Shown: one piece after another, positions 7,340-60,166 of the stretch
How positions within the stretch are numbered: position 1 is the stretch's first letter
Layout: the number at the start of each line of letters is the position of its first letter
Source of the DNA: Verrucomicrobia bacterium UBA6982
Lineage (GTDB): Bacteria > Verrucomicrobiota > Kiritimatiellia > RFP12 > UBA3636
Direction: 5' to 3'
Length of the DNA: 64,000 nt
Assembly: GCA_002448475.1 (NCBI GenBank)
Contig: DJYI01000139.1
Coordinates: 19,732 to 83,731, forward strand
The notes under the pieces: generated by a model
The model's database searches: none
Told to the model about the DNA's origin: nothing
The model's input: the letters and a program-made list of their open reading frames with translations, nothing else
Translations under genes and position numbers: made by a program

Positions 7340-8326
7340 CTACGCCCTGCGGGCTTCGAGCGCCCTGACTATTTCGGGAACGACCTCGTTGAGGTCGCCG
7401 ACGATTCCGATGTCGGCCACTTCGAAGATGGGTGCCGACGGGTCCTTGTTCACGGCCACGATCGTGTCCGAGCTCTGCATTCCGGCAAGGTGCTGGATGG
7501 CGCCGGAGATGCCGAGCGCGACGTAGAGTTTCGGGCATACGGTTTTGCCGGTCTGTCCCACCTGGTGAAGCGGGGAAATCCAGCCCGCGTCCACGGTGGC
7601 GCGCGAGGCGCCGACCGAGCCGCCGAGGGCGTCGGCGAGCTTGCGGACAAGGCCGAAGCCCTCCGGACCGCCGATGCCGCGTCCGCCTGACACTATGACC
7701 TTGGCCTCGGCAAGATTCGCGTCGTCGCCCGCCTCCTTCGTTGCCGACACGCGGTGCATCCGCTCCGGCACGTCCGATATGTCGATGCCCAGTCTCACGA
7801 TCGTCCCGGACGCTCCATCCACCCTTGTGCGCTTGAAGACGTTGGCGCGCACCGTGGACATCTGCGGGCGATGGTTTTCGCAGGTGATCGTTGCCATGAT
7901 GTTGCCGCCGAAGGCCGGGCGAGTTTGGAGGAGAATCTTCTTTTCGGAGTCGAACTCAAGCCCCGTGCAGTCGGCGGTCAGTCCCGTGTGCAGGGCGGCG
8001 GCGACCGTTGGGGCGAGCGAACGCCCGACGGACGTCGCGCCAAACAGGAGTATTTCGGGCTTTTGTTCGCGGACCGCGCGGCAGACCGCCTCGCCGAACC
8101 AGTCGTTCTGGCTGTAGGCGAAGCGCGGCGAATCGGCGACATAGACCTTGGAGGCTCCGTATGCGAAGAGTTCCGGCGCGAGCGCCTCTCCGTTTTCGGA
8201 AAGCAGAAGAGCGCATAGCGTGTAGCCGGACTGTGCCGCCAGTTCGCGGCCCTTTGAGAGAAGTTCGAGAGAGACGTTCTGCAGCGCTCCGTCGCGCTGC
8301 TCTGCGAAAACCCAGATTTCGTTCAT
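7340..8326 (-). CDS. etfA: Electron transfer flavoprotein alpha subunit
   Basis: EtfA-like sequence throughout. The FAD-binding C-terminal half reads ...[15 protein letters not shown]...[31 protein letters not shown].... Confidence 0.85.
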
Positions 8327-44657: not shown

Positions 44658-44838
44658 TGGTTCTTGTACAAAATTGCCTATGCCGATTTACGGTCTCATG
44701 ACCTCAAGGCGCTCTGAATACTATGTCATTGCTGTCCTTTTGTCCAGAATTTTCTATTTGACTTTTCGTGCACGTCATTCTAGCATCGGTCATGTGCTGC
44801 CTTACCCATCATCAAAAGAATCTTCGATCGCCACGCAA

Positions 44839-45774: not shown

Positions 45775-45788
45775 TATCTATTGCCTGC

Positions 45789-46826: not shown

Positions 46827-46830
46827 TAGC

Positions 46831-47889
46831 ATGAAATCGACCAAAACAACATCATATCGGATCGCCGCTTTCGATGTCTTGCGAAGCATTGCTCTCTTCG
46901 GCATTGTCGCCGTTCATGTCTGCTATTCCTTTCCAGACAATTCGTTCCGCCGCGCCGGGCAGCAACTGGGAGGAACCTTCAACGCTGTATTTCTTCTGTT
47001 GTCTGCTCTTTTGACGGGGTTGGCGAACAAACACATCAAGGAGTCCCCCGCTCGTTTTCTCGCCCGTCGAGCCTTGCGAGTGGGAATTCCGCTTTGGATT
47101 TTTCTTGTGTTTTTTTTCGTTGCCGCCATTGCTTGGACAGACACTACGATCCCGGCTGCAAAGGCCGTGGCCGAGTTCGCATTCCTTGGTTGGCCCGTGA
47201 AACTCCCTGGCCTAGGGCATCTTTGGTTTGTAACGCTCATTCTTCTTTGCTATGCACTAGTCGTTATCCTCGACCACAACCCGGCCCTCTTTGATGGGGC
47301 TCGGAAGGAAGGCTTCATCTTCCTTGCGACCATTACAACATCGTTGCTATTCGACCAGTGGAATATCCCAGCAGTACAAGCCCCGCTTTATCTGTTTTTT
47401 TTCGGTTTCATCTGGAAACACGCGACTGCCATCTTCTCGCTTGCAAAACGATCCATGACCAGAACCGCGTCTGCGATAATCGCGACGGCGGCATTCGTTA
47501 CTTTGCAAATTGGCAGCGCCATAGCATTCCAGCGCGGCTTATGGGACAAATCGCAGATGGGAGCGTATGTTCTGGGGTTGGTCGCGGGAATGTCCTGGAT
47601 CATTTTCGTAATTGGCCTATTGGAACGGGCTTCCATTCCACACATCGTTACGAAACTGTTCTCGACAATCGCGATTATTAGCTATGAGGCATATCTTGTC
47701 CACAACCCGTTCACGCGAATTCCGTTTCCGATCCACAAATCGTTGGGTCTCGACTCGTTCCTGGCCCGCTATTTATTCGTCCTAATCGTCTCTCTGTTAC
47801 TGGCCGGAGCCTTGCATGAAATCGCCACCTACACTCGCACCATCCTTTCAAGGTGGCAAAATCATGCCGGACCTTCACGATTCCCATGA
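46831..47889 (+). CDS. Acyltransferase family 3 membrane O-acyltransferase (paralog 5)
   Basis: ...YRIAAFDVLRSIALFGIVAVHVCY... (the AT3 signature) and a multi-TM body. The start is the ATG at 46831, 5 nt after the upstream stop. Confidence 0.65.
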   Translation: MKSTKTTSYRIAAFDVLRSIALFGIVAVHVCYSFPDNSFRRAGQQLGGTFNAVFLLLSALLTGLANKHIKESPARFLARRALRVGIPLWIFLVFFFVAAIAWTDTTIPAAKAVAEFAFLGWPVKLPGLGHLWFVTLILLCYALVVILDHNPALFDGARKEGFIFLATITTSLLFDQWNIPAVQAPLYLFFFGFIWKHATAIFSLAKRSMTRTASAIIATAAFVTLQIGSAIAFQRGLWDKSQMGAYVLGLVAGMSWIIFVIGLLERASIPHIVTKLFSTIAIISYEAYLVHNPFTRIPFPIHKSLGLDSFLARYLFVLIVSLLLAGALHEIATYTRTILSRWQNHAGPSRFP

Positions 47890-49121
47890 AAAGACACTTT
47901 GGCCAGAAGACCATAATAGCACCTTGCCTTTTTCTCCCACGTAAAATTTCTTTGAACATGTGAAACGGCCGATTTTGACATTTCCGAACGCAAACCCGGT
48001 TCACACAATCTTCGGAATGACTCCGCCATCTTCTCCACGACCTGTTCCTTAGGCCCAACGGATATCCGAAATCCAGCCGATTCCGGCACTTGCGTTGCTG
48101 GCCCACCCCAGTCCAAACATACAACAGGGAGTCCCGCCGCCATTCCTTCCAGACATGCCCAACCGCCAGAATCGTGCATACTTGGATGAACCAAAACGTC
48201 AGCGGAATGCAAATGGCGAAGTGCCACATCACGCGGAAGATTTCCGAGAATGCGAACATGATCGGAAACACCAAGCTTTTTGCAGAGCATCTGCAACTTG
48301 GCTCGCTCCGGTCCATCGCCAATCAATTCAAGTTCAGAATCATTGATGCCAGCTCGGGCGAACGCCTCGACAGCCAAAGCGTACCCTTTCCAGGCAACTA
48401 GTCGTCCCAAGCAAATAAAGCGAAGTCCCTTGTGAAAAACCTTTCCTGCGTCAAGACGCCGGATGTCGGCATTGGACAACGCGGACTCACCCAAGATGAA
48501 AACTTGTGATGAACTGCCACGCACCACACTGCATCTATCAGCAGACACTTTTGTCGTGGCTAGAACAATAGAAGCATTCTTCAGTGTCCCCCTTGTTCCG
48601 GGAGTCCATTCCGAGAAAAATCGGACCAATCCGCGAATTGTTTCAAAAAGACGACCTCGTATCGGCAGACAATTCCGAAGCTGTTTGGGGGTGAACTCAG
48701 CACCGCCGACGGGACCAAGCACATACGGTATCCCGGAATTTGCAAGGCAACTACGTCCCCAATACCTTACAAATGTCACGTGTTGGGCGGCATCAAACCT
48801 TTCCAGCTCATGCAAACGACGGACCTCCTTGCCGGCCATCGCTTGCCAGAACTGGTAGTGGAGCCTGATTTTCCACTCTGTCGGATTTCTCCACACATAG
48901 CGTGCAAAAGGAACTTCAAAAAAATGGAAACGGAGATTGTCCGCAACACGGCCAGCTTTGATTTCCTCTTCTATGTTCGAACGGCATTCCGATTGGGTAA
49001 GAACATGAACTTCGCAGAAAGCCGCCAACGCATTGGCAACGTTCCAACCTACGCCCGGCTCGGAACCGCGTCCTGGCCCACAGGCATAACTGGACAAAAG
49101 GATCTTCAAGCGTTTCGTCAT
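47862..49121 (-). CDS. Family 4 (GT-B) glycosyltransferase
   Basis: MTKRLKILLSSYACGPGRGSEPGVGWN... and ...CLEGMAAGLPVVCLDWGGPATQV... (EX7E-type). Confidence 0.7.
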   Translation of the reverse strand: MTKRLKILLSSYACGPGRGSEPGVGWNVANALAAFCEVHVLTQSECRSNIEEEIKAGRVADNLRFHFFEVPFARYVWRNPTEWKIRLHYQFWQAMAGKEVRRLHELERFDAAQHVTFVRYWGRSCLANSGIPYVLGPVGGAEFTPKQLRNCLPIRGRLFETIRGLVRFFSEWTPGTRGTLKNASIVLATTKVSADRCSVVRGSSSQVFILGESALSNADIRRLDAGKVFHKGLRFICLGRLVAWKGYALAVEAFARAGINDSELELIGDGPERAKLQMLCKKLGVSDHVRILGNLPRDVALRHLHSADVLVHPSMHDSGGWACLEGMAAGLPVVCLDWGGPATQVPESAGFRISVGPKEQVVEKMAESFRRLCEPGLRSEMSKSAVSHVQRNFTWEKKARCYYGLLAKVSFHGNREGPA

Positions 49122-50014
49122 GGTATTGATGGCCCGTGTGACGGATCTTGATCTTGCACGTCAGACGGGAACGATGAAACGGCATCATCTTTCCACCAAG
49201 CTCGAAAAGCGTGGTCGGTGATTCTCTTCTCCGGAGGAGGAGGAGTCATGTAATCGCCGTAAACAGAAGTCAGATACTCCTTCCACCCTGACATGACGCA
49301 TCGGGACTCTCCTTCAAAGGGAACTGTTGCCCATCCCGCATAAATGGAACTCGGAAAAATCTCCCGAATCCCGTACCCCCAAACTGCACAACCAACGAAT
49401 GGTGCTCCTTCAAACGATGTTTGGGACGCTTTCCTGCTGAACAACGGAAGAATCAACCGACTTGGAAGACGACGCACGGCCAACGGAATCAATTTGAAGG
49501 GGAGACAAAGCGAGAGAAACAACTGGCGCCGAAAGGACCGTTTTTTGTTGAATGGAGAGCAGTTCTGAAAAACAAGACACCCCCAAACCACTTTTTTCAT
49601 CCGAATGATTCGGCGAGGCGTTTCGTTATTGTCGGGAAACCCGTCCAAGGGGAAAACATCAAGGAAAACACCAAGTTGCAAATGTCGATATGAATCTTCG
49701 ATCAAGACGGTTCTTTCATCGCAGACTTTCGCAAAGGGGTAACAATACTTGCTGTCATTCTCATGGCAATGGAGCGCATAGCGGTCAGAACGGAACTCAC
49801 GGCAAAACCGTTCGTAATCGGGGCGTGGCATTGCAATGTCAATATCGTCATCCCAAGGAATAAAACCTTTGTGTCGGATTGCCCCGAGAAGGGTTCCACC
49901 ATACAGCGTGTAACGAAGTCCGTTTTTGACGCAGAAGGCATGAACCTCGGAAAGGATGCCTTTCTCAATGTTCTGAATCTCTTGTGTGGAGGAAATCGTC
50001 TTCATGTTCGTCAT
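49118..50014 (-). CDS. LicD-family phosphotransferase, copy 2
   Basis: ...STQEIQNIEKGILSEVHAFCVKNGLRYTLYGGTLLGAIRHKGFIPWDDDIDIAMPRPDYERF... aligns position by position with the pneumococcal LicD N-terminus. The start is the ATG at 50014 (MTNMKT), where the TAA stop of the upstream gene overlaps it by 1 nt. An in-frame ATG at 50074 is an alternative. Confidence 0.75.
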   Translation of the reverse strand: MTNMKTISSTQEIQNIEKGILSEVHAFCVKNGLRYTLYGGTLLGAIRHKGFIPWDDDIDIAMPRPDYERFCREFRSDRYALHCHENDSKYCYPFAKVCDERTVLIEDSYRHLQLGVFLDVFPLDGFPDNNETPRRIIRMKKVVWGCLVFQNCSPFNKKRSFRRQLFLSLCLPFKLIPLAVRRLPSRLILPLFSRKASQTSFEGAPFVGCAVWGYGIREIFPSSIYAGWATVPFEGESRCVMSGWKEYLTSVYGDYMTPPPPEKRITDHAFRAWWKDDAVSSFPSDVQDQDPSHGPSIP

Positions 50015-50862
50015 TAGCTCAAGTAGAGTTTGCCCTCGGTGAAAACACGACTGACAATCAGACAATGTCGCCATCGTCGTCCTATGCGCGCCAGAATGCG
50101 ATAAACGATACGCTCCCTTTTTTGAAGAAACCGAGGAAGTGGATAGTACGATCTTCGAATCTGATCATATTCGGCCCATCTGGTTTCTCTATACACGGTT
50201 GAAACGTTCGAGTCGTGAATCGCGAATGCTCCGATTACGCCGGGCACAAAGTGAAACCTATAACCGGCTTTCGCAAGCCGACAGTAGTATTCGCCGTCCA
50301 TGATGACCTTATAGGACGGATCAAGATAGTGTCCGGAATCAATCGCTCGACGGCGCCAAAAAGACGAACAGGAAGCAATCGTAACAGACGAAACGGCCAT
50401 GACAAAAAACGAGAACCTATGGGAATGCTTGACGCGAATCGGGCACCCATCTTCCGAAACGAAAAGAAAGTCGCCGTAAACAAAATCGGCCTTGGGGTGC
50501 TTTTCGAGGAAGTCGGCGACGAGGGAGAACTTGCCGGGAAGATAGTATTCGTCCGCGTTGAGCCAGGCGACAACGTCGCCCGTGGCGCGGCGAAGGCCCT
50601 TGTTGATCGCGTCGGTCTGGCCCTTGTCGGGCTCGGAAACGTAGGAAAAGGAATAGCGGCCGTCCTTCGCGGCCGGCTGCGCCGCCGCGGAGGTGGCCCA
50701 ATCCTTGAGGATCTGGACGGAGTCGTCGGTCGAGCCACCGTCTATGACGATGTGCTCAATCGCCGGTGCCCCCGGCGCGTCCGCCTGCGCGAGCACGCTT
50801 TCGAGCGCCTTCCTCAGGAAGCGCCCGTAATTGTAGTTCGGTGTAACGATGGAGAATTTCAT
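50014..50862 (-). CDS. Family 2 glycosyltransferase
   Basis: MKFSIVTPNYNYGRFLRKALESVLAQ...IVIDGGSTDDS... is a GT-A DxD N-domain. The start is the ATG at 50862, overlapping the upstream stop as ATGA. Confidence 0.7.
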   Translation of the reverse strand: MKFSIVTPNYNYGRFLRKALESVLAQADAPGAPAIEHIVIDGGSTDDSVQILKDWATSAAAQPAAKDGRYSFSYVSEPDKGQTDAINKGLRRATGDVVAWLNADEYYLPGKFSLVADFLEKHPKADFVYGDFLFVSEDGCPIRVKHSHRFSFFVMAVSSVTIASCSSFWRRRAIDSGHYLDPSYKVIMDGEYYCRLAKAGYRFHFVPGVIGAFAIHDSNVSTVYRETRWAEYDQIRRSYYPLPRFLQKRERIVYRILARIGRRWRHCLIVSRVFTEGKLYLS

Positions 50863-51380
50863 TGCTCGGGAGCCCCCGCCGACACGGGCGATTCGTCCGC
50901 GCCGCAAGGGATGGGGTTTCCGTCCAGCTCCCGCTGGGCGGCGAAAGCGATACGTTGGGCATCCAAGGCGTCGAAGAGGTGTTCGACGGACATTTCGTGA
51001 TAAGGGGAATACAGGAGAAGGATCGTTTCAAGAGGGGCGAACGCTTCAATCTCGCGAAACGAAAGCCCTGTCTTCCACTGGTATTGGGCAAGAGCCCATC
51101 CGGCCCAGAACTCCCGGCTCCGACCGACGACTCCCTTCGGTTTCTCGCGGCGGAATGGGACGCCTGCGTCATCGAGGATTTCCGCCGCGAGCTCCCATCC
51201 TGACTTTCCGCTCACGGTTCCGCTGAGTCCGTTTCCGAAGTCGTCCGAAACGTGCGAGGAAAGAAAGAGACGCCAGAAGTCCCGAAGCTCCATGCCGAAG
51301 AGATAGACCGCGCTCTCCAGCATCGATCCGAGGGCGAGCGAAGCGTCGGAGAGGTACAAGTCACTGTAGGCGGGGATCAT
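50859..51380 (-). CDS. Hypothetical protein, partner of the upstream DUF3990-like gene
   Basis: The start is the ATG at 51380 (MIPAYSDLYL...). It overlaps the upstream gene by 20 nt. I recognise no motif. Confidence 0.4.
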   Translation of the reverse strand: MIPAYSDLYLSDASLALGSMLESAVYLFGMELRDFWRLFLSSHVSDDFGNGLSGTVSGKSGWELAAEILDDAGVPFRREKPKGVVGRSREFWAGWALAQYQWKTGLSFREIEAFAPLETILLLYSPYHEMSVEHLFDALDAQRIAFAAQRELDGNPIPCGADESPVSAGAPEQ

Positions 51381-52032
51381 CCGGACGAATCCTTTCCTGA
51401 AGAATGTTGAGCATGTAGAGTCCGTCCGGATCGAACGGCTGGGCTCGCATCTCGCGGAACTCCCGCCGCGCGTCCGCGTCGCGCCGTTCCCGGGAATCGA
51501 GATAATCGGAGCGGCTTGCCGGTTCCGCCGAAACGAAGGAAAGAGCGCCGAACGCCTTCCGGCTCTTCGCGACGACTTGCAAACCGAGATTGCCGAGCCG
51601 GATCGCCCGCGAAAGGTTGGCATAGGAGAGGGCGCCTGAAAGAAACGTGCGCGCAAAGGAAAAGTAGCTGTCGTCCGCACGATAGCCGACGATGACATCG
51701 GCTTTTGAGTAATCGGGCAGGAACGTCGAAAGAAGATAGTCTCGCGCAGCGGAGGCGATGTCTCCATCGATGTCGAACGTGCGGTTCTCGAGCAGAACGG
51801 CGAGCCAGTGCAACACTGTGAACGACCCATCGGCCAGGTTCAAAACGTTCAATAGGGACAGGTCGAGTTCGTATTGATTGACGAACCCGTCGTGGAGAGG
51901 GGTGACGCTCCACTCGCCGGCAAGAGAACGATCCTCGGTGCAGTAGAACCCAAGCCCGTAGTCGTTGCTTCGCTTGCCGAAGCCGAACACGGGCCTTTCA
52001 ACAACACTCTCGGAACCGTGGAATATCGTCAT
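51361..52032 (-). CDS. DUF3990-like protein
   Basis: MTIFHGSESVVERPVFGFGKRSNDYGLGFYCTEDRSLAGEW resembles the DUF3990 N-terminal consensus (M.LYHGS...DFG.GFY.T....A..WA). The start is the ATG at 52032, preceded by GGAG. Confidence 0.45.
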   Translation of the reverse strand: MTIFHGSESVVERPVFGFGKRSNDYGLGFYCTEDRSLAGEWSVTPLHDGFVNQYELDLSLLNVLNLADGSFTVLHWLAVLLENRTFDIDGDIASAARDYLLSTFLPDYSKADVIVGYRADDSYFSFARTFLSGALSYANLSRAIRLGNLGLQVVAKSRKAFGALSFVSAEPASRSDYLDSRERRDADARREFREMRAQPFDPDGLYMLNILQERIRPDDPRLQ

Positions 52033-52430
52033 TCGGAGGCTCCAAGGGAAACCTCCCTGGACGACGTCCACAGGCCGTGGAGGTTGCAGTAGGCTGTGGC
52101 GTGGAGGGTGCCGGGGACGGTGAGGGAGACGCGGAAGCGGGCGGAGGGCGCGGTGGCGGCGGGGCCGGGCGCGTCGGAGAGGGAGGCGCCGTGCGCCGAG
52201 AAGTCCGCGCGGCCCAGCTCGATCGAGGTGCTGGCGCCTTCGGGGACGAAATGAAGCGCGATCCAGACGATGTGGTGCTGCACCGTGTTCGGATGCGCGA
52301 TCTCCTTGCCGACGTCGACCTCGACGTCGAAGGGGACGCCGGGCTTCACGGACGCCGGGGCGGAGATGACGGGGACGTGCTTTTCCGCCTTCCAATCGGC
52401 GGTCTTGACGGTGGAGGAAAGCGTGTTCAT
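52029..52430 (-). CDS. Superoxide reductase (1Fe-SOR, neelaredoxin/desulfoferrodoxin centre-II type), copy A
   Basis: The Fe-ligand motifs are all present: ...EKHVPVI..., ...HPNTVQHHIVWIAL... and ...CNLHGLW.... The start is the ATG at 52430 (MNTLSSTVKTADW). Confidence 0.75.
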   Translation of the reverse strand: MNTLSSTVKTADWKAEKHVPVISAPASVKPGVPFDVEVDVGKEIAHPNTVQHHIVWIALHFVPEGASTSIELGRADFSAHGASLSDAPGPAATAPSARFRVSLTVPGTLHATAYCNLHGLWTSSREVSLGASE

Positions 52431-52522
52431 TTTTGGATTGTCACCCCTCGTCGGAGCATTTGCCGCCCCGGCGGCGGCAGGGGGTAGAGGTTGATGGTCG
52501 GATGCGTCAAAGGGATGGCGGA

Positions 52523-52551
52523 ATTCTAGCATACTTGAAAAAAAGTTGCAA
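52523..52551 (-). promoter_or_regulatory. Putative sigma70-type promoter of SOR copy A
   Basis: On the minus strand, TTGCAA (-35, 52546-52551), then a 17-nt spacer, then TAGAAT (-10, 52523-52528). The block is conserved upstream of copy B (54755-54782, with a 16-nt spacer). A 13-bp direct repeat CCGGCGGTCGGCC lies just upstream and occurs twice. Confidence 0.4.
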
Positions 52552-52607
52552 CCGGCGGTCGGCCCCTGCCGAACAGCGGGCCGCCCGGCGGTCGGCCCCC
52601 ATCAAGC

Positions 52608-52760
52608 GTCGTCGTTCACTTGGGCGAGAACACTTTCAAGCGCATTCCGGAGGAAGCGCCCGTAGCTGTAGTTCGGAGTGACGATGGAGAATCTCATTGC
52701 GCTGCGGTCTTGACGGTGGAGGAGAGGGTGCTCATGGCGCGCATTCTAGCAGGGAAGGAG
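52608..52760 (-). pseudogene. Chimeric gene remnant: SOR 5' end (13 codons, MSTLSSTVKTAAQ*) joined by an ATGA junction to a GT2 5' end (about 30 codons, MRFSIVTPNYSYGRFLRNALESVLAQVNDDA*), plus a fragment of the SOR -10 region
   Basis: 52625-52700 is about 85% identical to 50790-50865, the 5' end of the GT2 gene and its junction with the DUF3990-partner gene. 52703-52737 resembles the SOR start region 52396-52430. Confidence 0.5.
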
Positions 52761-52793
52761 GCCCGGCGGCGCAACCGGGGGCGGATCGAGAAG

Positions 52794-54095
52794 TCACGGG
52801 CGGAGGGTCGAGAGGGGGCAGACGAGGATACCGTCCTCGGGACGGCGGTAGGCGATGTCGCCTTCGGCGACGACAATCATGCGGAAGGCCGGAGGGGGCA
52901 TGCGGGTCGTGTCGATCTTGGATGCTAGGGATGTAAGGGCGGCGACGCCCTTGGCGATCAGGGAGTCGCCGCCCGTCTTGATCTCGATCAGGCCGTAGTG
53001 CCCGTTTTCGAGGCGCAGCACGGCGTCGCACTCCAAGCCGCTTTTGTCATGGTAGTGGCACAGCGTACCGCCGAGGGCGTCGGCGCAGGTTCGCAGGTCG
53101 CGGATGGCCATGGTCTCGAAGAACAGGCCGAAGGTCGGCATGTCGTTCATGAGTTCGGCCGGGCCCACGCCGAGCGCTGCGGCGGCGATCGAAGGATCGG
53201 AGAAATAGCGCGTGTCCGTCGTCCGGATCGGCGTCTTGCAGCGCAGGTTCGGACACCAGGCCTCGAGATCGTCCGTCGCGAAGATCTTCCGCAGTGCCTT
53301 CAGGTAGGCGTACACGGTGTCCTCCGTCAGGGTGTCGACGTCATTGGCCTTCATGTCATCGCGGATGGCGGCCGCGGACGACTGCGTTCCCTGGAGCCGG
53401 GCCAGGCTACGCATAAGGCGCCGGACCCGGCCGGGATCGCGCAGGGTGCCGTCGACCCGCGAAACGTCGCTGTCGCAGATTGCCGCGAAATACTCCTTCG
53501 CCGGGCCGCGCGCGGCGCTCCCGGACAAGCCGAGCGCGCCCGGCCATCCCCCTCGGCACAGCAGTTCGCAAATGTCCTCGAGATGCCGATCGTTCTTCGC
53601 GCCGGTCGGATCCTCTCCGGCAAACAGACCGGAGAAGGAAACCGAGCCCGTGGACTCGCCGCTCTCCCAAAGGCTCATGGGGCGCATGGACAAGCGAGCG
53701 ATGCGGCCCGTTCCCGTATGGCGGAGGGTCCGGTTCTTTTCGTCCGCTTCGTCCACCGCCGGCGGAACGGCGCTGCCCGTCAGGATGAACATGCCCCGCC
53801 CGCCCTCGTCGACGGCAAACCGGACGGCGTCCCAGAGAAGCGGCACTTCCTGCCACTCGTCCAGAAGATGGGGCGAAGCGCCCTCCAACACCTTGTCGGG
53901 GCGGGCCTCCGCCAGAATCCGGTCGGTCCTTCCCTTGACCGGATCGCCGAAACAGACCTCGCTTTTCGCGATTTGCCGGGCCGTTGTCGTCTTCCCGCAC
54001 CATTTCGGACCCTGCACGAGAACGGCACCCATGTACGACAACTTTTCCGCGAGAAGAATGTCCGCAACGCGTTTTCTGTAGGTTTCCGCTTTCAC
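52794..54095 (-). CDS. AAA+ ATPase of the DUF4143-containing (AAA_14-like) family
   Basis: Walker A is VLVQGPKWCGKTTTARQ, and there is a C-terminal DUF4143-like region. The GTG start at 54095 is preceded on the minus strand by TTGACA, 17 nt, then CAGAAT. Confidence 0.65.
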   Translation of the reverse strand: MKAETYRKRVADILLAEKLSYMGAVLVQGPKWCGKTTTARQIAKSEVCFGDPVKGRTDRILAEARPDKVLEGASPHLLDEWQEVPLLWDAVRFAVDEGGRGMFILTGSAVPPAVDEADEKNRTLRHTGTGRIARLSMRPMSLWESGESTGSVSFSGLFAGEDPTGAKNDRHLEDICELLCRGGWPGALGLSGSAARGPAKEYFAAICDSDVSRVDGTLRDPGRVRRLMRSLARLQGTQSSAAAIRDDMKANDVDTLTEDTVYAYLKALRKIFATDDLEAWCPNLRCKTPIRTTDTRYFSDPSIAAAALGVGPAELMNDMPTFGLFFETMAIRDLRTCADALGGTLCHYHDKSGLECDAVLRLENGHYGLIEIKTGGDSLIAKGVAALTSLASKIDTTRMPPPAFRMIVVAEGDIAYRRPEDGILVCPLSTLRP

Positions 54096-54134
54096 AAGGG
54101 TGGATTCTGGGTCATTTTCCTGAATTTGTCAAGC

Positions 54135-54249
54135 CATTCGGTAATTTGGCGAATTTTCGTTAGGCAATCTGGCGCCATTCCGTTAGGCAATCTGGCGCCA
54201 TTCCGTTAGGTAATTTGGCGACGTTTCGTTAGGTAATTTGGCGACAGAT
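54135..54249. repeat. Tandem array of a 23-bp unit CGTTAGG(C/T)AAT(C/T)TGGCG(C/A)C...: four full copies plus one degenerate copy
   Basis: Read directly. The full copies are at 54158-54180, 54181-54203, 54204-54226 and 54227-54249, with a degenerate copy at 54135-54157. The array sits immediately upstream of the putative -35 of the DUF4143 ATPase gene. Confidence 0.8.
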
Positions 54250-54264
54250 GGGCGGGCTTTTTTC

Positions 54265-54657
54265 CTAATCCACCGCGAGCGCCGAGGCGCTTGTCCACAG
54301 GCCGTGGAGGTTGCAGTAGGCTGTGGCGTGAAGGGTGCCTGGGGCGGAGATGCAGACGCGGAAGCGGGCGGAGGGCGCGGTGGCGGCGGGGCCGGACGCG
54401 TCGGAGAGGGAGGCGCCGTGCGCCGAGAAGTCCGCGCGGCCGAGCTCGATCGAGGTGCTGGTGCCTTCGGGGACGAAATGAAGCGCAATCCAGACGATGT
54501 GGTGCTGTGCCGTGTTCGGATGCGGAATCTCCTTGCCGACGTCGACCTCGACGTCGAAGGGGACGCCGGGCTTCACTGACGCCGTGGCGGAGATGACGGG
54601 GACGTGCTTTTCCGCCTTCCAGTCGGCGGTCTTGACGGTGGAGGAAAGTGTGTTCAT
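54265..54657 (-). CDS. Superoxide reductase (1Fe-SOR), copy B
   Basis: Nearly identical to copy A (MNTLSSTVKTADWKAEKHVPVISATASVKPGVPFDVEVDVGKEIPHPNTAQHHIVWI...CNLHGLW). Confidence 0.75.
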   Translation of the reverse strand: MNTLSSTVKTADWKAEKHVPVISATASVKPGVPFDVEVDVGKEIPHPNTAQHHIVWIALHFVPEGTSTSIELGRADFSAHGASLSDASGPAATAPSARFRVCISAPGTLHATAYCNLHGLWTSASALAVD

Positions 54658-54829
54658 TTTTGGATTGCCACCGCTACGCTCGGCGTGACATTCGCCGCCC
54701 CGGCGGCTGAAAGGTGTAGAGGTTGATGGTCGGATGCGTCAAAGGGATGGCGGAATTCTAGCATACTTGAAAAAAGTTGCAACCGGCGGTCGGCCCCTGC
54801 CGAACAGCGGGCCGCCCGGCGGTCGGCCA

Positions 54830-56050
54830 CTACCGAACTAGAGGGAGCCGCTTTGATACGGTGCAGCGGACCATGGTGGGGGAGAGATCGAACTTCGGTG
54901 GTGGGTTGCCGTTGTCTGCCAAATGCTGGCGGGCGAGACCGATGCCGCGTCCAAATTGCTGGACGTATCCCCAGGTCTTGAGAATGGTGGCTAGGTTCGG
55001 GTTGCGATAGTCGGCATAGCCGGGAACGCCGAAGGTCTCCGACGTGACGGTTCCATACGGTCCGCCGGGGTTGGAAATTTCCACGCGATCGTCAAACCAG
55101 TCCACGCGGACCGGCGCATTGGTGTGTTCATAGGTCCGATGCAGGACGGCGTTGTAGAGCAATTGCTGCAGGGCGACCATCGGATAGTCGGGCCGAACAA
55201 TATGCGTCGGACCGGATTCCACGTCCCACGCGATGCGGTTGTGGGCCGCCATTTTCGCCTCTGCGGTCTGAAGCATGGCCTTGAGCGGGCCGCGGCAGTC
55301 CAGTTCGTCAACGACCGGTGCCGCGCGATCCGTCCCGGAGAAGCGGAGGAACTGGACCCTGGCTCCGGGGAGATGCCATTGGGGATCCTTTCCCAGGGCC
55401 AGCAACCCGGAAAGCGTTGGTCGCGTATCCTCCGGCGAAACGATCATCCGGCAGGAGGCAAGTTTCTCTTCGTAGCTGCGGCCGTTCGCGGAGAGGATCT
55501 CCGGCGCAAACGCTACCGGGAGAAACTCGTCCTCGAACGCCGCACGGGAGAGGTCGGCCAACGAGGCCGCCACAACCGGACAGAGGTCGAACGGAAGGTT
55601 CTTCCAACGCCTTTTCTCGGTGAGCGTCCGCTCCTCCTGAACTGTGGCGACGCCACGACGCGGCCCGATCCGAATCCATGTGCGCCCGTCGAACTTCACG
55701 GGCGGAATGTCCGACGGCTCGACAACGACAACGACCATCTCGGCACCGAGAAGAATCCGTTTCTCGACAAGGATCGACGGAGACGGTAGAATGCGACCAT
55801 CGGTCTTCATGTCCGAAACGTCGCGCAAAAGCTCGTCCGTCACGGCCAAGCCGGACGGCGAACCGTCGTCGTTCGCTCCGATGAAGAGGACGCCGGGGTG
55901 ATTGTGGCCCGGGAGGTCGTTCGCAAACGCGCATACCGCCTCCCGCGCCTTTGTCGCGACATCGCGCGAGAAGGAAGACTTCCTCTCGGCGGCGTCGGAC
56001 TCAAGGTCCCTGAGACGGGCCAGCAGTTCTGCGTCGGACAGTGAACTCAT
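54830..56050 (-). CDS. AlbA_2 (Schlafen-like divergent AAA) + HATPase_c_4 domain protein, usually annotated as a putative transcriptional regulator or 'RecG-like'
   Basis: MSSLSDAELLARLRDLESDAAERKSSFS...AVCAFANDLPGHNHPGVLFIGANDDG... is the AlbA_2-type N-domain. The C-terminus ...LLYNAVLHRTYEHTNAPVRVDWFDDRVEISNPGGPYGTV... is HATPase_c_4-like. The start is the ATG at 56050, 28 nt after the SNF2 gene. The ORF's 249 upstream codons overlap the SNF2 gene and are not expected to be translated. Confidence 0.6.
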   Translation of the reverse strand: MSSLSDAELLARLRDLESDAAERKSSFSRDVATKAREAVCAFANDLPGHNHPGVLFIGANDDGSPSGLAVTDELLRDVSDMKTDGRILPSPSILVEKRILLGAEMVVVVVEPSDIPPVKFDGRTWIRIGPRRGVATVQEERTLTEKRRWKNLPFDLCPVVAASLADLSRAAFEDEFLPVAFAPEILSANGRSYEEKLASCRMIVSPEDTRPTLSGLLALGKDPQWHLPGARVQFLRFSGTDRAAPVVDELDCRGPLKAMLQTAEAKMAAHNRIAWDVESGPTHIVRPDYPMVALQQLLYNAVLHRTYEHTNAPVRVDWFDDRVEISNPGGPYGTVTSETFGVPGYADYRNPNLATILKTWGYVQQFGRGIGLARQHLADNGNPPPKFDLSPTMVRCTVSKRLPLVR

Positions 56051-56078
56051 GCGGGGCGGATAATAGCAGAAGTGGGCG

Positions 56079-58901
56079 CTACTGCCAAGAAAGGCGACAG
56101 TTTTCGACGAAGGCTCGGGCGGAGCGGATCGGATCCGGGATGTCGCGGGAAAACACAGACGCCTCCAGAATGCGCTCAAATTCGGGGCGAAGATCAAGTT
56201 CGGCGACGGCGGACTGGAAGTCCTCGGAAGAAACGGGCGCGACGGAATCCGACTCCGGAACTGCGCCGAGCGCTTGGCGCGCGGCGCCTGCGGCGAGTGC
56301 CACGGCCTTGCGCAGCGCGGCCTGGCCTTCCCCCGCGAACCCGCCGCCAACAAGAAGTTCTCCCATTTTGAGGAGGCGTTCGGTTTCGGAGTCGGCCCTT
56401 CTGGCAGCCGCGACGCGGCGCGCGGCCGCAGCCTTGGCCGCATCGGCCGGTTCGCGGACAAACACCGGCTTCGCGACATCGGAGCGGAACTGGATGACTC
56501 CCAAATCGCGGAGCCGTTCGATGATCGCCCAGGTTTCCGGGGAGACAATCTCCACAGCAGAGTCAGGCAGCGCCGTTCCGTGGGTTCCGGCGATCCGTCG
56601 GGCCGCCTCGGTCTGGTCGATTCCGGAGCCGACGAAGACGGCGGCGGTCGGCGCACGGTCGGCGGCGTCCCCGGAACGGCCGAGCAGGAGGCGCTCGACG
56701 CCGGGACATTCCGCCGCGATTTCCGCGCGAAGCCGCTCGTCCGGCGGGATGACCGGCTCGGTTCGAGGCGAAGGATCGGGGCGGACCTTGACAGCATCGC
56801 CCATCACGGAGGCAAGGCGCTGCATGAAGGCGCTTTCCTTCCTGCGTCCCTTAGCCTCCTCGGCGTCAAGTCGCTCGAAGTCGGCGGCGTCGCCCTGCGC
56901 GTCAAGAACGAAATCGGCCAGCCCCTGCTTGAAATCTAGCGTCTGGAGCATACGCTCCTCTATCGTTCCGGCGGCGACCATGTTCACGACAAGGACATCG
57001 CGCTTCTGGTGCTTGCGCCAGGCGCGGGCAATCCGCTGTTCGAGGCGGGCCGGATTCCACGGAAGATCGAGGTTTACGACAACGCTCGCTACCTGAAGGT
57101 TCAGGCCCACGCCGCCGGACTCCGAGGCGAGGAACACCCGGCACTTCGGATCCTCCTTGAAGCGACGAATTTCCTCCCGGCGGCGCCTCTGCGGAATCTG
57201 GCCGGTGTGGAGAGCGAAGCCGATGTCCTTCGCCTCGAGCCTGGCGGCGAGCAGATCAAGCATGCGGGTCCATTCGGAGAACACAATGACCTTGCGAGAA
57301 GGTTCGTCGGCGAAGATGTCGTCAAGGACCTCCTCGAATTCGTCCAGTTTTGGCGAGTCGCGGATTTCGGGATCCATGATATAGCAGGAATCGCAAAGCA
57401 TTCTCATCATCGCAAGTTCCCTCTGGAGACGCTCCTGCTCCTTCGGGGAAAGCGGACGCTTCCTGCTTAGCGCGTAAAGGGTCGCGACCTCGTGCAGGTG
57501 CTCGTCGTAGCGACGCGACTGCTCCGGCGTCATCGAAGTCTTGTAGGTTTTCGACATGCGGCCTGGAAGTTCGTCCTCGACTGCTGACTTGCGACGGCGT
57601 AAAAGGATGCCCGAAACCGCGTCATGGAGTTCCGCGAGATCCTTCATGCCCGTGTTGTGGCCATCTTTGTCAAAGGAGTAGAAGCGCCTGTTGAAGCGAA
57701 AGAGACTGCCGAAAAGGGTAGGATCGACGAATTCGACCAGAGAATAGAGCTCGTCAATGCGGTTCTCCAGCGGCGTGCCGGTCAGGACGAAGGCGTATGG
57801 GGAGGACAGGGCCTTCAAGTTGCGGGCGGTCTTTGTCTTCCAGTTCTTGATGCGCTGGGCCTCGTCGAGAATGACAAGGTCGGGCTTCAACGTGTCGTTG
57901 ATCTCCTTCCAGTCGCGGATTGCCTGCTCGTAGTTCGCGACAAGAAAGAACGCCGCCGTTTTCGCGTAACGTTCGAGACGTGCGGCGCGAGCGCCGAAGA
58001 GCAGTTCGACCGTCGCATCGGAAAAGAGCCGGATCTGATCGTCCCATTCGCCTTTGAGAGAGGCCGGCACGATTACGAGAACATGGCGGACATCGGCGGC
58101 CTCGCGAAGAAGAAGCGCCGCCGCGATCGCCTGAACGGTCTTGCCGAGGCCCATTTCGTCGGCAAGGATGGCGCGCCCCTTGCGGGCGAGATGCAAGGCG
58201 CCGTCCTGCTGATATGGGAAGAGAGATTTCTTCAGGAACGGCCAGCGGGTGTCGGTGCCCTGATCGTCGCGGAATTCGTCGACGGCTCGAACGAGCGCCT
58301 CGCGGCGTGTCAGGTCCGCCAGGTGGCGTCGAATTTCATGCGAAACGCGAACAGAACCTGGACGGACGGCATTCAACCTGTCGCAGGCGCGGAGAAAAAC
58401 GTCCAGACCGGCGGCGGAGGCGTCGCGGAGCGTCCCGTCGGCGGCGCAATGGCGCGCCAGGGCGCGCCGCGTCTCCGGCGGCAGGGTAGGGGACAGGATG
58501 AGAACCGGGACATGCCGTGGGCGGCGTATGAACACCTCTGCGGCTGTCGATTGGCGGGACTTTCCGCACTTGCGCGCGGCAACCTTCAGGACACGTTCGA
58601 TGTGCTTGCATGTGCCGAGACCGTTCTTGACGAAATCCGGGCAATTGCATGTATTGATCGGTTCGTCAAGCGAGCGCAGTTCGACTCTGTAGGCGGCGGT
58701 TCGGTGATCTGCGGCCGGGTGAGACACCTCGTAGATGCCAAACCCGCCGGACACGTCGACGGCCCTGACCTTCATGGGCTCGGCCGCCGCCCGTTCCCGC
58801 CGCTTGCGTATTTCCTCCGCGTCCGTAGTCGCCCAGCTATCGAGCTTGGGCACCTTGGCGCGGGAGGGCGATGCTCCGTTTTTCAGTTGCTGTGTCTTCA
58901 T
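56079..58901 (-). CDS. SNF2-family helicase with an N-terminal SWIM zinc finger (YwqA/RapA-like)
   Basis: The SWIM finger is CNCPDFVKNGLGTCKHIERV. The SNF2 motifs include ...ILADEMGLGKTVQAIAA... (motif I), ...DLVILDEAQRIKN... (DEAQ box, motif II) and ...VFLASESGGVGLNLQVASVVVNLDLPWNPARLEQRIARAWRKHQ... (motifs V-VI). Confidence 0.8.
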   Translation of the reverse strand: MKTQQLKNGASPSRAKVPKLDSWATTDAEEIRKRRERAAAEPMKVRAVDVSGGFGIYEVSHPAADHRTAAYRVELRSLDEPINTCNCPDFVKNGLGTCKHIERVLKVAARKCGKSRQSTAAEVFIRRPRHVPVLILSPTLPPETRRALARHCAADGTLRDASAAGLDVFLRACDRLNAVRPGSVRVSHEIRRHLADLTRREALVRAVDEFRDDQGTDTRWPFLKKSLFPYQQDGALHLARKGRAILADEMGLGKTVQAIAAALLLREAADVRHVLVIVPASLKGEWDDQIRLFSDATVELLFGARAARLERYAKTAAFFLVANYEQAIRDWKEINDTLKPDLVILDEAQRIKNWKTKTARNLKALSSPYAFVLTGTPLENRIDELYSLVEFVDPTLFGSLFRFNRRFYSFDKDGHNTGMKDLAELHDAVSGILLRRRKSAVEDELPGRMSKTYKTSMTPEQSRRYDEHLHEVATLYALSRKRPLSPKEQERLQRELAMMRMLCDSCYIMDPEIRDSPKLDEFEEVLDDIFADEPSRKVIVFSEWTRMLDLLAARLEAKDIGFALHTGQIPQRRRREEIRRFKEDPKCRVFLASESGGVGLNLQVASVVVNLDLPWNPARLEQRIARAWRKHQKRDVLVVNMVAAGTIEERMLQTLDFKQGLADFVLDAQGDAADFERLDAEEAKGRRKESAFMQRLASVMGDAVKVRPDPSPRTEPVIPPDERLRAEIAAECPGVERLLLGRSGDAADRAPTAAVFVGSGIDQTEAARRIAGTHGTALPDSAVEIVSPETWAIIERLRDLGVIQFRSDVAKPVFVREPADAAKAAAARRVAAARRADSETERLLKMGELLVGGGFAGEGQAALRKAVALAAGAARQALGAVPESDSVAPVSSEDFQSAVAELDLRPEFERILEASVFSRDIPDPIRSARAFVENCRLSWQ

Positions 58902-59038
58902 TGTCTGTGGCCGATTATTGACAATTGCGGTCTAAGCGCAAGGAAAATCGTGAATCTGGGTGGGATAAAAAAAGCGTAGTTGCGAATTTTACGTATCGAA
59001 CTTTACGCAACGCAAAAGAAGTGCTAGTATTCGGCCTC

Positions 59039-60166
59039 ATGAAACCGAACAACCCCTTTCTTGTGCGCGGATACGCCGGTCCGGAATGGTTCTGTGATCG
59101 CGAGAACGAAACAGCAAAACTCGTTTCGGCGTTTGAAAACGACCGTGACGTGACTCTTGTGGCCCCTCGGCGATACGGGAAAACAGGACTTATCAGGAAC
59201 GCTTTCCAATGTCTAGACGATCAGATTCCCAAAATTTACATTGATGTGTTCCAAACACGAACTCTGGCCGACTTCACGGCTCTGTTTGCTTCCGCCGTGG
59301 CCGATGCAATGGACACAAAGTTCGAGCGGGCGGTTGCCGCCGCAGCGTCCTTTTTCAGGAGCTGTCGTCCATCGATTACCGTTGGACCTGACGGAAATCC
59401 AAAGATTTCGTTCGACATTTCTCCTTCGCGGACTGAAGAGACGCTTTCCGAAGCATTCGCCTATTTGGCAAAACGCGACAAACGCGCCATTATCGCCATT
59501 GATGAATTTCAACAGGTGCTGGACTATCCCGGCCAGAGCGCCGAAGCGCTTCTGCGATCACAAATTCAGTTTGTTCCGCACATTCGTTTCGTCTTTGCCG
59601 GATCACGCCAACATCTCATGCGAGAAATGTTTCTGTCGCCCAAGCACCCGTTCTATCAAAGCACTGACATCCTTTCCCTGAAGCCAATTGACAAAGACAT
59701 CTATTATTCCTTCGCGGCCCGACACTTCCGCGCCGGGGCAATGAAACTGGAGAAATCAGCGTTTGATGCCATCTATGACCGATTCGACGGAGTGACCTGG
59801 TACCTGCAAATGGTTCTTAATCGTTTATGGGAGGGTCGTCGGGATGTCATGGGTCCCGATGCCGTGGAACCGGTCATTTCGGAAATCATAGAATCGAGAT
59901 CTATGGAATACCATGATCTTCTCCTCTCCCAGACGTCGGCTTCTCAAGCTGTTTTGCGCGCCATGGCGGCGGAAAAAATCGTGGCGGAACCGACGTCCGG
60001 CCAGTTCGTGGCGCATTGTGGACTCCGTGCGACATCCACCGTTGCGTCCGCATTAAAGTCGCTTCGAGATCGAGATCTCGCATATCACACACCTAGGGGA
60101 TGGATTGTCTATGACCGCTTTTTTGGAGAATGGCTGTCTCGGTTCGCTCCCCGCCTCCGCCAATGA
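59039..60166 (+). CDS. Arch_ATPase-type AAA+ ATPase with a C-terminal DUF234-like winged-helix domain
   Basis: ...FLVRGYAGPEWFCDRENETAKL... then Walker A LVAPRRYGKTGL and Walker B AIIAIDEFQQV. The start is the ATG at 59039. It sits in a lower-GC segment. Confidence 0.6.
   Translation: MKPNNPFLVRGYAGPEWFCDRENETAKLVSAFENDRDVTLVAPRRYGKTGLIRNAFQCLDDQIPKIYIDVFQTRTLADFTALFASAVADAMDTKFERAVAAAASFFRSCRPSITVGPDGNPKISFDISPSRTEETLSEAFAYLAKRDKRAIIAIDEFQQVLDYPGQSAEALLRSQIQFVPHIRFVFAGSRQHLMREMFLSPKHPFYQSTDILSLKPIDKDIYYSFAARHFRAGAMKLEKSAFDAIYDRFDGVTWYLQMVLNRLWEGRRDVMGPDAVEPVISEIIESRSMEYHDLLLSQTSASQAVLRAMAAEKIVAEPTSGQFVAHCGLRATSTVASALKSLRDRDLAYHTPRGWIVYDRFFGEWLSRFAPRLRQ

What the first reader, a model, noticed from the sequence alone, without database searches (positions are those of the whole stretch)
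52029..54840. Segmental duplication: two ~93%-identical copies of a superoxide reductase gene with its promoter, bracketing a DUF4143 AAA ATPase
Each copy is about 550 bp and includes the -35/-10 block and a 13-bp direct repeat. They lie as direct repeats about 2.2 kb apart. Between them are the DUF4143 ATPase gene, a chimeric SOR/GT2 remnant and a 23-bp tandem array. Long direct repeats allow recombinational excision or amplification of the enclosed segment. The layout looks like an insertion of the ATPase cassette that duplicated its SOR target region, or an amplifiable or phase-variable unit. A duplicated SOR also suggests gene-dosage selection for oxidative-stress defence in an anaerobe.
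Basis: seen in the sequence. Interest (0 to 1): 0.65.

Follow-up and report, generated by a model that had tools for sequence, protein, structure and literature searches.

The report
Duplicated SOR gene flanking defence cassette
A rumen bacterium carries two near-identical copies of an oxygen-detoxifying gene because two alternative versions of one hypervariable locus were joined end to end; this is fairly ordinary, but the 23-bp repeat array between them proves to be a universal, apparently undescribed signature of a very common candidate anti-phage gene.

Summary
Two direct repeats (52066-52597 and 54293-54828, 532/536 bp, 93.5% identical) each carry a promoter and codons 1-122 of a 1Fe superoxide reductase (SOR). 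They bracket a DUF4143 ATPase, SOR/GT2 remnants and a 23-bp x5 array. Independent assemblies, including one 39-kb contig from a second strain, confirm the layout, so it is not an artefact.

The ATPase did not duplicate its target: four related loci carry SOR-array-ATPase-GT2 with a single SOR. The locus lies at the edge of a variable glycan cluster in an uncultured Kiritimatiellae lineage. It looks like two alleles joined at conserved SOR and GT2-5' sequences: type I (SOR + ATPase, PADLOC PDC-S01) and type II (SOR + DUF3990 pair, PDC-M42). Recombination scars remain. The copies then exchanged patches of sequence. Both look functional (dN/dS 0.29). I found no clear evidence of present-day excision or amplification.

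The array belongs to the ATPase cassette. An array of exactly 23-bp period lies just upstream of the promoter in 76 of 77 metagenomic homologues and 8 of 8 further homologues from four phyla. Two alphaproteobacterial homologues have period 22. The protein models as AAA+, winged helix and PD-(D/E)XK nuclease. I found no publication describing the array.

The parts
54293..54828 (-). Repeat copy B: long-leader SOR promoter region plus SOR-B codons 1-122
   Evidence: 100% identical in strain L177
54658..54828 (-). P_long(B): two 13-bp repeats (54783-54795, 54816-54828), -35 TTGCAA / -10 TAGAAT (54782-54755), ~105-nt leader with a GCCGCC..GGCGGC hairpin
54265..54657 (-). SOR-B, 130 aa, 1Fe superoxide reductase with the 'type I' C-terminus (..TSASALAVD) that is the commoner of the two tails among the closest homologues
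54134..54246 (-). 23-bp tandem array, 5 units (CGCCAAATTACCTAACGnAAnnn on the gene strand); abuts the -35 of the ATPase promoter; 4 units in L087
54104..54132 (-). ATPase promoter TTGACA-N17-CAGAAT
52794..54095 (-). AAA_14 + DUF4143 ATPase, 433 aa (PADLOC PDC-S01); Walker A GPKWCGKTT; predicted winged helix ~221-297; PD-(D/E)XK motif D357..E371-x-K373
52780..52797 (-). ~18-nt GT2 5' stub overlapping the ATPase stop (GTGA); in L091 this is the real GT2-LicD start
52704..52753 (-). Remnant 'e': short-leader SOR promoter (CCGGTTGC..TGCTAGAAT) plus the first ~32 nt (11 codons) of the SOR coding sequence, of the kind that drives the single SOR in L170/L092/L102/L089
   Evidence: (D7)
52598..52700 (-). 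Remnant 'f+g': GT2 nt 1 to ~103-113 (83% identical to 50778-50865 over 88 nt), ending at the junction with P_long(A)
   Evidence: (D4)
52066..52597 (-). Repeat copy A: P_long(A) (52431-52597; -35/-10 at 52551-52523; 13-bp repeats 52552-52564, 52585-52597) plus SOR-A codons 1-122
52029..52430 (-). SOR-A, 133 aa, 'type II' C-terminus (..TSSREVSLGASE); stop overlaps the DUF3990 start (ATGA)
51361..52032 (-). DUF3990 protein (PADLOC PDC-M42A), first cargo gene of the type II module
50859..51380 (-). 173-aa partner (weak PDC-M42B match); stop overlaps the GT2 start
50014..50862 (-). GT2 glycosyltransferase; its first 88 nt (50778-50865 with the overlap) are shared by all strains. Strains L177, L086 and L181 switch to other glycan clusters after nt 88

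Best explanation
The region is the promoter-proximal edge of a hypervariable surface-glycan gene cluster in an uncultured rumen Kiritimatiellae lineage. In relatives a single SOR gene opens this operon, and the slot between SOR and the first glycosyltransferase (GT2) holds varying cargo. In type I alleles SOR has the canonical tail and is followed by the array-plus-DUF4143 ATPase cassette (PDC-S01), by an unrelated small gene, or by nothing. In type II alleles SOR has an alternative tail and is translationally coupled to a DUF3990 pair (PDC-M42). In the window's lineage a type I unit and a type II unit lie in tandem. They were most likely joined by homologous or illegitimate recombination at the sequences all alleles share: the SOR 5' part and the first ~100 nt of GT2. 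One route would be Campbell-type integration of a circularised [P_long-SOR-DUF3990 pair-GT2 5'] piece into GT2. The joining left a GT2 5' remnant and a decapitated older SOR start between the units. The two ~535-bp repeats have since exchanged short patches by gene conversion. Both SOR genes stay intact, and each promoter drives its own unit. The 23-bp array is not part of the duplication. It is the cis element of the ATPase cassette, probably the binding platform for the ATPase's own winged-helix domain. Shown: anatomy, single-copy relatives, fixation in two strains, mosaic patches, family-wide array. Inferred: order and mechanism of the joining events, and protein binding to the array.
For: Single-SOR relatives: L170, L092, L102 and L091 have GT4 - short promoter - SOR(I) - array - ATPase - GT2LicD; L089 lacks the ATPase; L088 has SOR(II)-DUF3990-172aa-glycan genes. 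Both C-termini are natural variants: tail I is the commoner among the closest homologues, and tail II matches L088 and T. maritima SOR 2amu. Remnant 'e' matches the short-leader promoter of the type I loci at 87-92%. Remnant 'f+g' is GT2 nt 1 to ~113 and is present in L086 and L177 too, so that junction predates the strain split. L177 has the same two-copy layout at 98-99% nt identity but a different glycan cluster after GT2 nt 88. L181 has a third variant. GC falls from 0.60-0.68 (50,500-54,000) to ~0.5 in the glycan cluster. Mosaic: of 61 variable columns in winA/winB/L086, 26 are A=B and 25 are A=L086, in blocks. A177 and winA carry different B-like patches, while B is identical in both strains. 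dS 0.115, dN/dS 0.29. L086 (leader directly followed by GT2 5') versus L091/L177 (leader-array-ATPase-GT2 start) defines array+promoter+ATPase as one inserted unit.
Against: The exact sequence of events cannot be reconstructed. At least three junctions need separate events, and explaining 'e' downstream of the ATPase needs an extra duplication plus deletion, or a donor already carrying it. Patches shared by A and B could come from recombination with other strains rather than from intragenomic conversion. No close relative was returned from the species-representative genome collection (best SOR match 56%). All comparisons therefore rest on metagenome contigs, many of them short. No integrase, att site or circular intermediate was seen.
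Confidence: 0.6

Rival explanations
1. In-situ tandem duplication of one ancestral unit [P_long-SOR-cargo-GT2 nt 1-113] by unequal crossing-over, followed by replacement of the cargo in one copy.
For: Both units start with P_long and end with a GT2 5' piece of the same extent. The junction GT2 nt ~113 | P_long is shared by the window, L177, L087 and L086.
Against: The two SOR tails are both ancient variants. f and l are only 83% identical while the SOR repeats are 93.5%. Material from a diverged allele had to enter in any case. This differs from the best explanation mainly in the order of events.
Confidence: 0.2
2. The ATPase cassette is a mobile element whose insertion duplicated its SOR target.
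For: The ATPase lies exactly between the repeats. The family is extremely abundant and occurs on plasmids. L086 versus L091/L177 looks like an empty versus a filled site.
Against: Four loci hold the same cassette next to a single SOR. The cassette inserts between a leader and the GT2 start codon, not into SOR. No target-site duplication and no array units at the 3' side or elsewhere in the window.
Confidence: 0.05
3. An actively excising or amplifying (phase-variable or dosage-variable) 2.2-kb unit bounded by the SOR repeats.
For: L087 is 2792 bp with its first and last 592 nt identical: one 2200-bp unit closed on itself, with GT2-remnant sequence upstream of a B-type copy. The array is 4 versus 5 units between samples. 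There are gene-conversion patches.
Against: L087's repeat is a mosaic of A-like leader and B-like coding sequence, as expected if an assembler collapsed two copies. No contig joins HATPase_c_4-SOR directly to DUF3990 among 7 + 16 contigs carrying the flanking genes. B is identical and the layout stable in two strains.
Confidence: 0.12
4. Assembly artefact (mis-joined or duplicated contig end).
For: It is a short-read metagenome assembly, and several contigs break at the repeat edges.
Against: The copies differ at ~35 positions and have distinct flanks. All four junctions recur in other runs and assemblers. L177 spans the whole structure in one 39-kb SPAdes contig from another sample.
Confidence: 0.02

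Closest known systems
Cassette switching at capsule / O-antigen loci by recombination in conserved flanks (e.g. pneumococcal cps between dexB and aliA; E. coli O-antigen between galF and gnd); from general knowledge
   Same: A hypervariable, lower-GC glycan cluster bounded by conserved sequence. Strains that are 98-99% identical in the flank carry different clusters, and the switch point is reproducible (GT2 nt 88).
   Different: Here the conserved flank (promoter + SOR + GT2 5') is itself present twice in tandem, with scars between the copies. Candidate defence genes, not glycan genes, fill the slots.
Defence islands / variable hotspots between core genes
   Same: PDC-S01 and PDC-M42 candidates sit side by side, along with an SNF2 helicase and an AlbA_2/HATPase_c_4 protein. 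They are present or absent between close relatives.
   Different: No integrase, att site or prophage/satellite backbone was seen in the ~10 kb examined around the finding. Movement appears to use host homologous recombination.
Concerted evolution of duplicated genes by gene conversion (e.g. tufA/tufB)
   Same: Patchy homogenisation of two copies within a genome relative to orthologues in sister strains.
   Different: Homogenisation stops at the repeat borders because the 3' ends and upstream flanks are unrelated. The copies are only 2.2 kb apart and in direct orientation.
Iterons, operator arrays and transposon-end repeats (plasmid Rep iterons of 17-22 bp; Tn7 22-bp TnsB sites)
   Same: Tandem direct repeats of about two helical turns next to a gene for a winged-helix-containing protein. 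The unit sequence diverges together with the protein.
   Different: The period is fixed at 23 bp (22 in two alphaproteobacterial homologues). The array is upstream of the promoter of an AAA+/PD-(D/E)XK gene, on one side only. No replication or transposition function is known, and binding is untested.
1Fe superoxide reductases (neelaredoxins): T. maritima 2amu, P. furiosus 1do6
   Same: PF01880/TIGR00332 domain, E-K-H, HPN..HH and C-N-x-H ligand motifs, ~125-130 aa.
   Different: Nothing notable. Two paralogues differ mainly in the last 8-11 residues.

Membership tests
1Fe superoxide reductase (class II SOR / neelaredoxin) | Desulfoferrodoxin ferrous-iron-binding domain above curated cut-off | tested here: met
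   PF01880 at 103 and 102 bits (cut-off 22.2); TIGR00332 at 88.6 and 89.5 bits (cut-off 61.9). Both copies pass.
1Fe superoxide reductase (class II SOR / neelaredoxin) | Fe ligands 4 His + 1 Cys, plus the E-K pair | tested here: met
   E16-K17-H18, H46, H52, C115 and H118 are present in both translations. They align to 2amu.
1Fe superoxide reductase (class II SOR / neelaredoxin) | No N-terminal desulforedoxin domain (which would make it a 2Fe-SOR) | tested here: met
   The domain starts at residue ~9. TIGR00320 (dfx_rbo) scores 40-42 bits against a cut-off of 146.9.
1Fe superoxide reductase (class II SOR / neelaredoxin) | Superoxide reduction activity | not testable with these tools
   Needs an enzyme assay.
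PADLOC PDC-S01 (AAA_14 + DUF4143 ATPase-nuclease) | Full-length match to the family model | tested here: met
   PDLC04790 E 2.7e-52, residues 5-430 of 433. Pfam AAA_14 and DUF4143 both above cut-off.
PADLOC PDC-S01 (AAA_14 + DUF4143 ATPase-nuclease) | Walker A P-loop and PD-(D/E)XK catalytic motif | tested here: met
   G29-P-K-W-C-G-K-T-T37, D357, E371 and K373 are invariant in alignments spanning 51-94% identity. The C-terminal fold matches restriction endonucleases and McrC.
PADLOC PDC-S01 (AAA_14 + DUF4143 ATPase-nuclease) | Anti-phage activity | not testable with these tools
   It is described as an unvalidated candidate in PMC12988326.
Target-site duplication by a mobile element | Relatives that carry the element also carry the duplication, and empty sites have one copy | tested here: not met
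   L170, L092, L102 and L091 carry the ATPase with one SOR.
Phase-variable / amplifiable unit | Alternative structures (deletion, circle, higher copy number) in the same population | tested here: inconclusive
   L087's ends are identical over 592 nt, but this is explicable by repeat collapse. No deletion junction was found.
Iteron / operator array bound by the adjacent gene's product | Tandem direct repeats of fixed period adjacent to the gene, conserved across the family | tested here: met
   Best lag is 23 in 75/76 upstream regions versus 6/297 control windows. TRF finds a period-23/46/69 array in 76/77. 8/8 further homologues show period 23: 7 plasmid-borne from cultured bacteria and 1 gut phage-like contig. 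Two alphaproteobacterial homologues show period 22 and one shows none.
Iteron / operator array bound by the adjacent gene's product | The gene product has a sequence-specific DNA-binding domain | tested here: inconclusive
Iteron / operator array bound by the adjacent gene's product | Demonstrated binding and regulatory effect | not testable with these tools
   Needs EMSA, footprinting or reporter assays.

The most novel reading that the evidence does not exclude
The 22/23-bp upstream array is an obligatory part of every PDC-S01 (AAA_14-DUF4143) cassette. It is the DNA track on which the AAA+/winged-helix/PD-(D/E)XK protein assembles, one protomer per repeat. This would couple its own expression, and perhaps its activation, to oligomerisation on DNA. 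If so, one of the most abundant candidate defence genes in prokaryotes is a self-contained protein-plus-cis-element module. The array would also mark one end of the unit that moves between genomes.
Probability: 0.4. Interest if true: 0.7.

Novelty: new variant of a known kind. Interest (0 to 1): 0.5.

Why it matters
The SOR duplication itself is a well-documented example of a known process. Conserved genes at the border of a variable glycan/defence locus act as recombination handles, get stacked in tandem, and then evolve in concert. It is useful for understanding strain variation in gut Kiritimatiellae but is not surprising.

The array matters more. PDC-S01 is reported as the fourth most common predicted defence system across prokaryotes and the single most frequent defence locus in rumen genomes (PMC12988326, PMC13356809). 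It has no validated function or mechanism. A strictly periodic cis element that travels with the gene across at least five phyla gives a concrete, cheap experimental handle: binding, autoregulation and structure on DNA. It also gives a better way to delimit the cassette in genome annotation.

Tried and rejected
1. The genome-contig scan with SOR-A returned no relative closer than 56% identity, so the orthologous locus could not be compared in species-representative genomes.
2. Rfam at gathering and relaxed thresholds found nothing for the array or the leaders.
3. The first AlphaFold run, on a shallow alignment of 74-94% homologues, was unusable (pLDDT 49). It was repeated with a second clade added.
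4. Pfam at E<=10 on the middle and C-terminal segments of the ATPase found no HTH family.
5. A sequence search of the PDB found no solved relative of the ATPase.
6. A sliding-window test for the protein segment that co-varies with the repeat unit gave no discriminating peak. The overall Mantel correlation (r 0.31-0.50, p<=0.0005) shows co-inheritance only, not binding.
7. I considered a Tn7-like transposon reading (AAA+ plus PD-(D/E)XK plus 22-bp end repeats) and set it aside. Units occur on one side only, and no other unit is found in the 64-kb window.
8. I first thought SOR-A had the native 3' end and SOR-B a truncated one. Homologues showed both tails are natural variants.
9. The in-frame upstream extension of SOR-A (167-aa ORF from 52532) was rejected as the real start, because the frame is broken in copy B.
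10. Literature searches for DUF4143, PDC-S01, COG1373, AAA_14 and 23-bp repeats found no description of the array.


Full report
OBSERVATION. The repeat is real. The repeat finder and a pairwise alignment place copy A at 52066-52597 and copy B at 54293-54828, with start-to-start spacing of 2227-2231 nt. Identity is 93.5% with gaps counted. All genes here are on the minus strand. Each copy contains:
- two 13-bp repeats, CCGGCGGTCGGCC (four hits in the window against 0.37 expected);
- a TTGCAA-N16/17-TAGAAT promoter;
- a ~105-nt leader;
- codons 1-122 of a PF01880/TIGR00332 superoxide reductase.

Between the copies lie an AAA_14+DUF4143 ATPase (52794-54095), a 23-bp x5 array (54134-54246) and two short remnants. 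Both SOR genes are complete (130 and 133 aa). Both keep E16-K17-H18, H46, H52, C115 and H118. Over the shared codons dS is 0.115 and dN/dS is 0.29.

SOURCE AND RELIABILITY. Exact-protein look-ups place the window on an 83-kb scaffold whose sample label (SHIW14-1) appears to denote a rumen metagenome. Homologues are named Kiritimatiellae. The four repeat junctions recur in other assemblies and runs: L003, L005, L173-L175 and L178. L177 is a 39-kb SPAdes contig from another sample. It spans SNF2 - HATPase_c_4 - SOR-B - ATPase - SOR-A - DUF3990 at 98-99% identity, with a different glycan cluster downstream. The layout is therefore not an artefact, and at least two strains carry it.

WHAT RELATIVES SHOW. 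The species-representative genome collection returned nothing closer than 56%. Metagenome contigs, however, give the orthologous locus in several states.
- L170, L092, L102 and L091: GT4 - short-leader promoter - one SOR - array - ATPase (94-95% aa) - GT2-LicD.
- L089: GT4 - SOR - small unrelated gene - GT2-LicD, with no ATPase.
- L088: one SOR whose stop overlaps DUF3990, then a 172-aa gene and glycan genes.

So there are two natural allele types. Type I has the tail ..TS[SA]xPIAV[AE]. This is the commoner of the two tails among the closest homologues and is carried by SOR-B. Type II has the tail ..TSxxE[VI]S[LV]xAxx fused to the DUF3990 pair. SOR-A carries it, as do L088, L086 and T. maritima 2amu. 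Loci that carry the ATPase can have a single SOR, so the ATPase insertion did not create the duplication.

JUNCTION ANATOMY, reading the minus strand from high to low coordinates.
(i) The HATPase_c_4 stop is immediately followed by P_long(B).
(ii) SOR-B, array and ATPase are collinear with the type I loci.
(iii) The ATPase stop overlaps an ~18-nt GT2 5' stub (GTGA...). In L091 this stub is the real GT2 start.
(iv) Remnant 'e' (52704-52753) is the short-leader promoter plus the first ~32 nt of SOR, 87-92% identical to the type I promoters.
(v) Remnant 'f+g' (52598-52700) is GT2 nt 1 to ~113. It is 83% identical to the start of the live GT2 at 50778-50865.
(vi) P_long(A) - SOR-A - DUF3990 - 173 aa - GT2 follow, each overlapping the next.

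The f+g | P_long junction is shared by L086, L087 and L177, so it predates their divergence. Strains diverge again exactly after GT2 nt 88: L177 and L086 continue with ORF6N (then epimerases in L177), and L181 continues with a third gene set. GC drops to ~0.5 in the glycan cluster. Every unit thus begins with promoter + SOR and ends with a GT2 5' piece. This is the pattern expected when alleles of one locus are concatenated by recombination in their shared ends. I regard Campbell-type integration of a circularised type II unit into GT2 as the simplest route. A tandem duplication followed by cargo replacement is nearly equivalent. The order of events is inference.

RECOMBINATION BETWEEN THE COPIES. 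In a three-way comparison (winA, winB, orthologous A of L086), 26 variable columns group A with B and 25 group A with its orthologue, in alternating blocks. Adding L177 shows three things:
- B is identical in both strains.
- A differs by 3.6% between them.
- Each A carries different B-like patches.

This is the signature of patchy gene conversion, though import from other strains cannot be excluded. For present-day excision or amplification the only hint is L087. It is a 2792-bp scaffold whose first and last 592 nt are identical. Its repeat is an A/B mosaic of the kind a collapsed assembly graph produces. No contig joins HATPase_c_4-SOR directly to DUF3990. The question stays open.

THE ATPase CASSETTE AND ITS ARRAY. 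PADLOC classifies the ATPase as PDC-S01 (E 2.7e-52). The DUF3990 protein matches PDC-M42A, and its partner matches PDC-M42B weakly. L086 has a ~200-nt leader running straight into the GT2 5' piece. L091 and L177 have leader - array - promoter - ATPase - GT2 start. This defines array + promoter + gene as one inserted unit. The array length differs between samples: 5 versus 4 units.

I then asked whether the array is local or general.
- In 80 metagenome loci encoding homologues of 51-95% identity, TRF finds a period-23 (or 46/69) array upstream in 76 of 77 usable cases.
- Across all 522 kb of those loci, period 23 is by far the dominant tandem period.
- The best self-similarity lag is 23 in 75 of 76 upstream regions, against 6 of 297 control windows.
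- The array always ends just upstream of the promoter, whether sigma-70-like or Bacteroidota-type.
- The unit consensus is nGCCAA[AC]T[TG]nC[C]nAA[TC][GA]AAAAnn, with a variable centre.
- Unit divergence tracks protein divergence (Mantel r 0.31-0.50, p<=0.0005). This shows co-inheritance only.
- Seven plasmid-borne homologues from cultured Bacteroides, Collinsella, Prosthecochloris, Actinomyces and Lentilactobacillus (52% down to 26% identity) and one gut phage-like contig all have best lag 23.
- Two alphaproteobacterial homologues have lag 22, and an Azotobacter one has none.

LITERATURE. DUF4143 is listed only as a PD-(D/E)XK family of unknown function (PMC3424549). PDC-S01 is described as an unvalidated ATPase-nuclease candidate. 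It is reported as the fourth most common defence across prokaryotes and the most frequent single locus in rumen genomes (PMC12988326, PMC13356809). No searched paper mentions an upstream repeat array, and Rfam has no model for it. The library is incomplete, so 'undescribed' is provisional.

VERDICT. The duplication is genuine and old, and it is present in both strains for which the whole locus is assembled. It is explained by stacking of two alleles at a variable glycan/defence border, with later gene conversion. This is a known kind of event and of modest interest. The 23-bp array is the most noteworthy result: a family-wide cis element of PDC-S01 cassettes.

Noticed in passing
window 54134-54246; loci L090-L169, L185-L195: An array of exactly 23-bp period (2.3-8.7 units) lies just upstream of the promoter of almost every AAA_14+DUF4143 (PDC-S01) gene examined: 76/77 metagenome loci and 8/8 further homologues from four phyla. 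Two alphaproteobacterial homologues have period 22 and one Azotobacter homologue has none. Unit consensus nGCCAA[AC]T..C..AA[TC][GA]AAAA.
   Followed up: yes
L177:3629-3818 and 7348-7537; L086:51-240 and 2342-2531; L181:1436-1526 and 2017-2107: A ~190-nt non-coding element with an internal inverted repeat occurs twice per locus at recombination junctions: after SOR(I), and after the GT2 5' piece. The window lacks it, and L170/L092 keep only its first ~50 nt. It may be a small repeated or mobile intergenic element.
   Followed up: partly
window 54830-60166: Between the GT4 gene (60189-61448) and the SOR promoter the window holds ~5.4 kb: an ATPase_2-family protein, a 940-aa SNF2 helicase (matches ZorD/DpdE/DrmD models) and an AlbA_2/HATPase_c_4 protein (matches pAgo-associated models). 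In L089, L170, L092 and L102 GT4 abuts SOR directly, so this is another inserted defence-like block.
   Followed up: partly
window 50859-52032; L086, L088: DUF3990 plus a ~173-aa partner (PADLOC PDC-M42A; weak M42B) is translationally coupled to SOR by an ATGA overlap in three diverged lineages. Its own stop overlaps the next gene's start in the window (GT2) and in L088 (ORF6N).
   Followed up: partly
window 52780-52797; L091:2800-2830; L170, L092, L090: The ATPase stop codon overlaps a GT2 start (GTGA). In L091 this is the live GT2-LicD start. In the window, L170, L092 and L090 only an ~18-20-nt stub remains, followed by other sequence.
   Followed up: partly
window 44000-50500: GC content is ~0.44-0.53 in most 500-nt windows of the glycan cluster (LicD, GT1, acyltransferases, Wzy-like), with one window at 0.60. 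From 50,500 to 54,000 it is 0.58-0.68. The transition lies inside the GT2 gene, close to the nt-88 switch point between strains.
   Followed up: partly
window 52452-52478 and 54684-54706: Both long leaders keep a GCCGCC(N2-5)GGCGGC hairpin although the flanking leader sequence is the most diverged part of the repeat. It may be a regulatory element. There is no Rfam match.
   Followed up: no
window 14925-15042: A 21-bp (42-bp) tandem repeat, about 5 copies, consensus GACGCCGCCGTGGCAAACCTC. Not examined.
   Followed up: no
L087 (2792 bp): This scaffold's first and last 592 nt are identical, closing one 2200-bp SOR-ATPase unit on itself. That is compatible with a circle, a tandem copy or a collapsed repeat.
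   Followed up: partly
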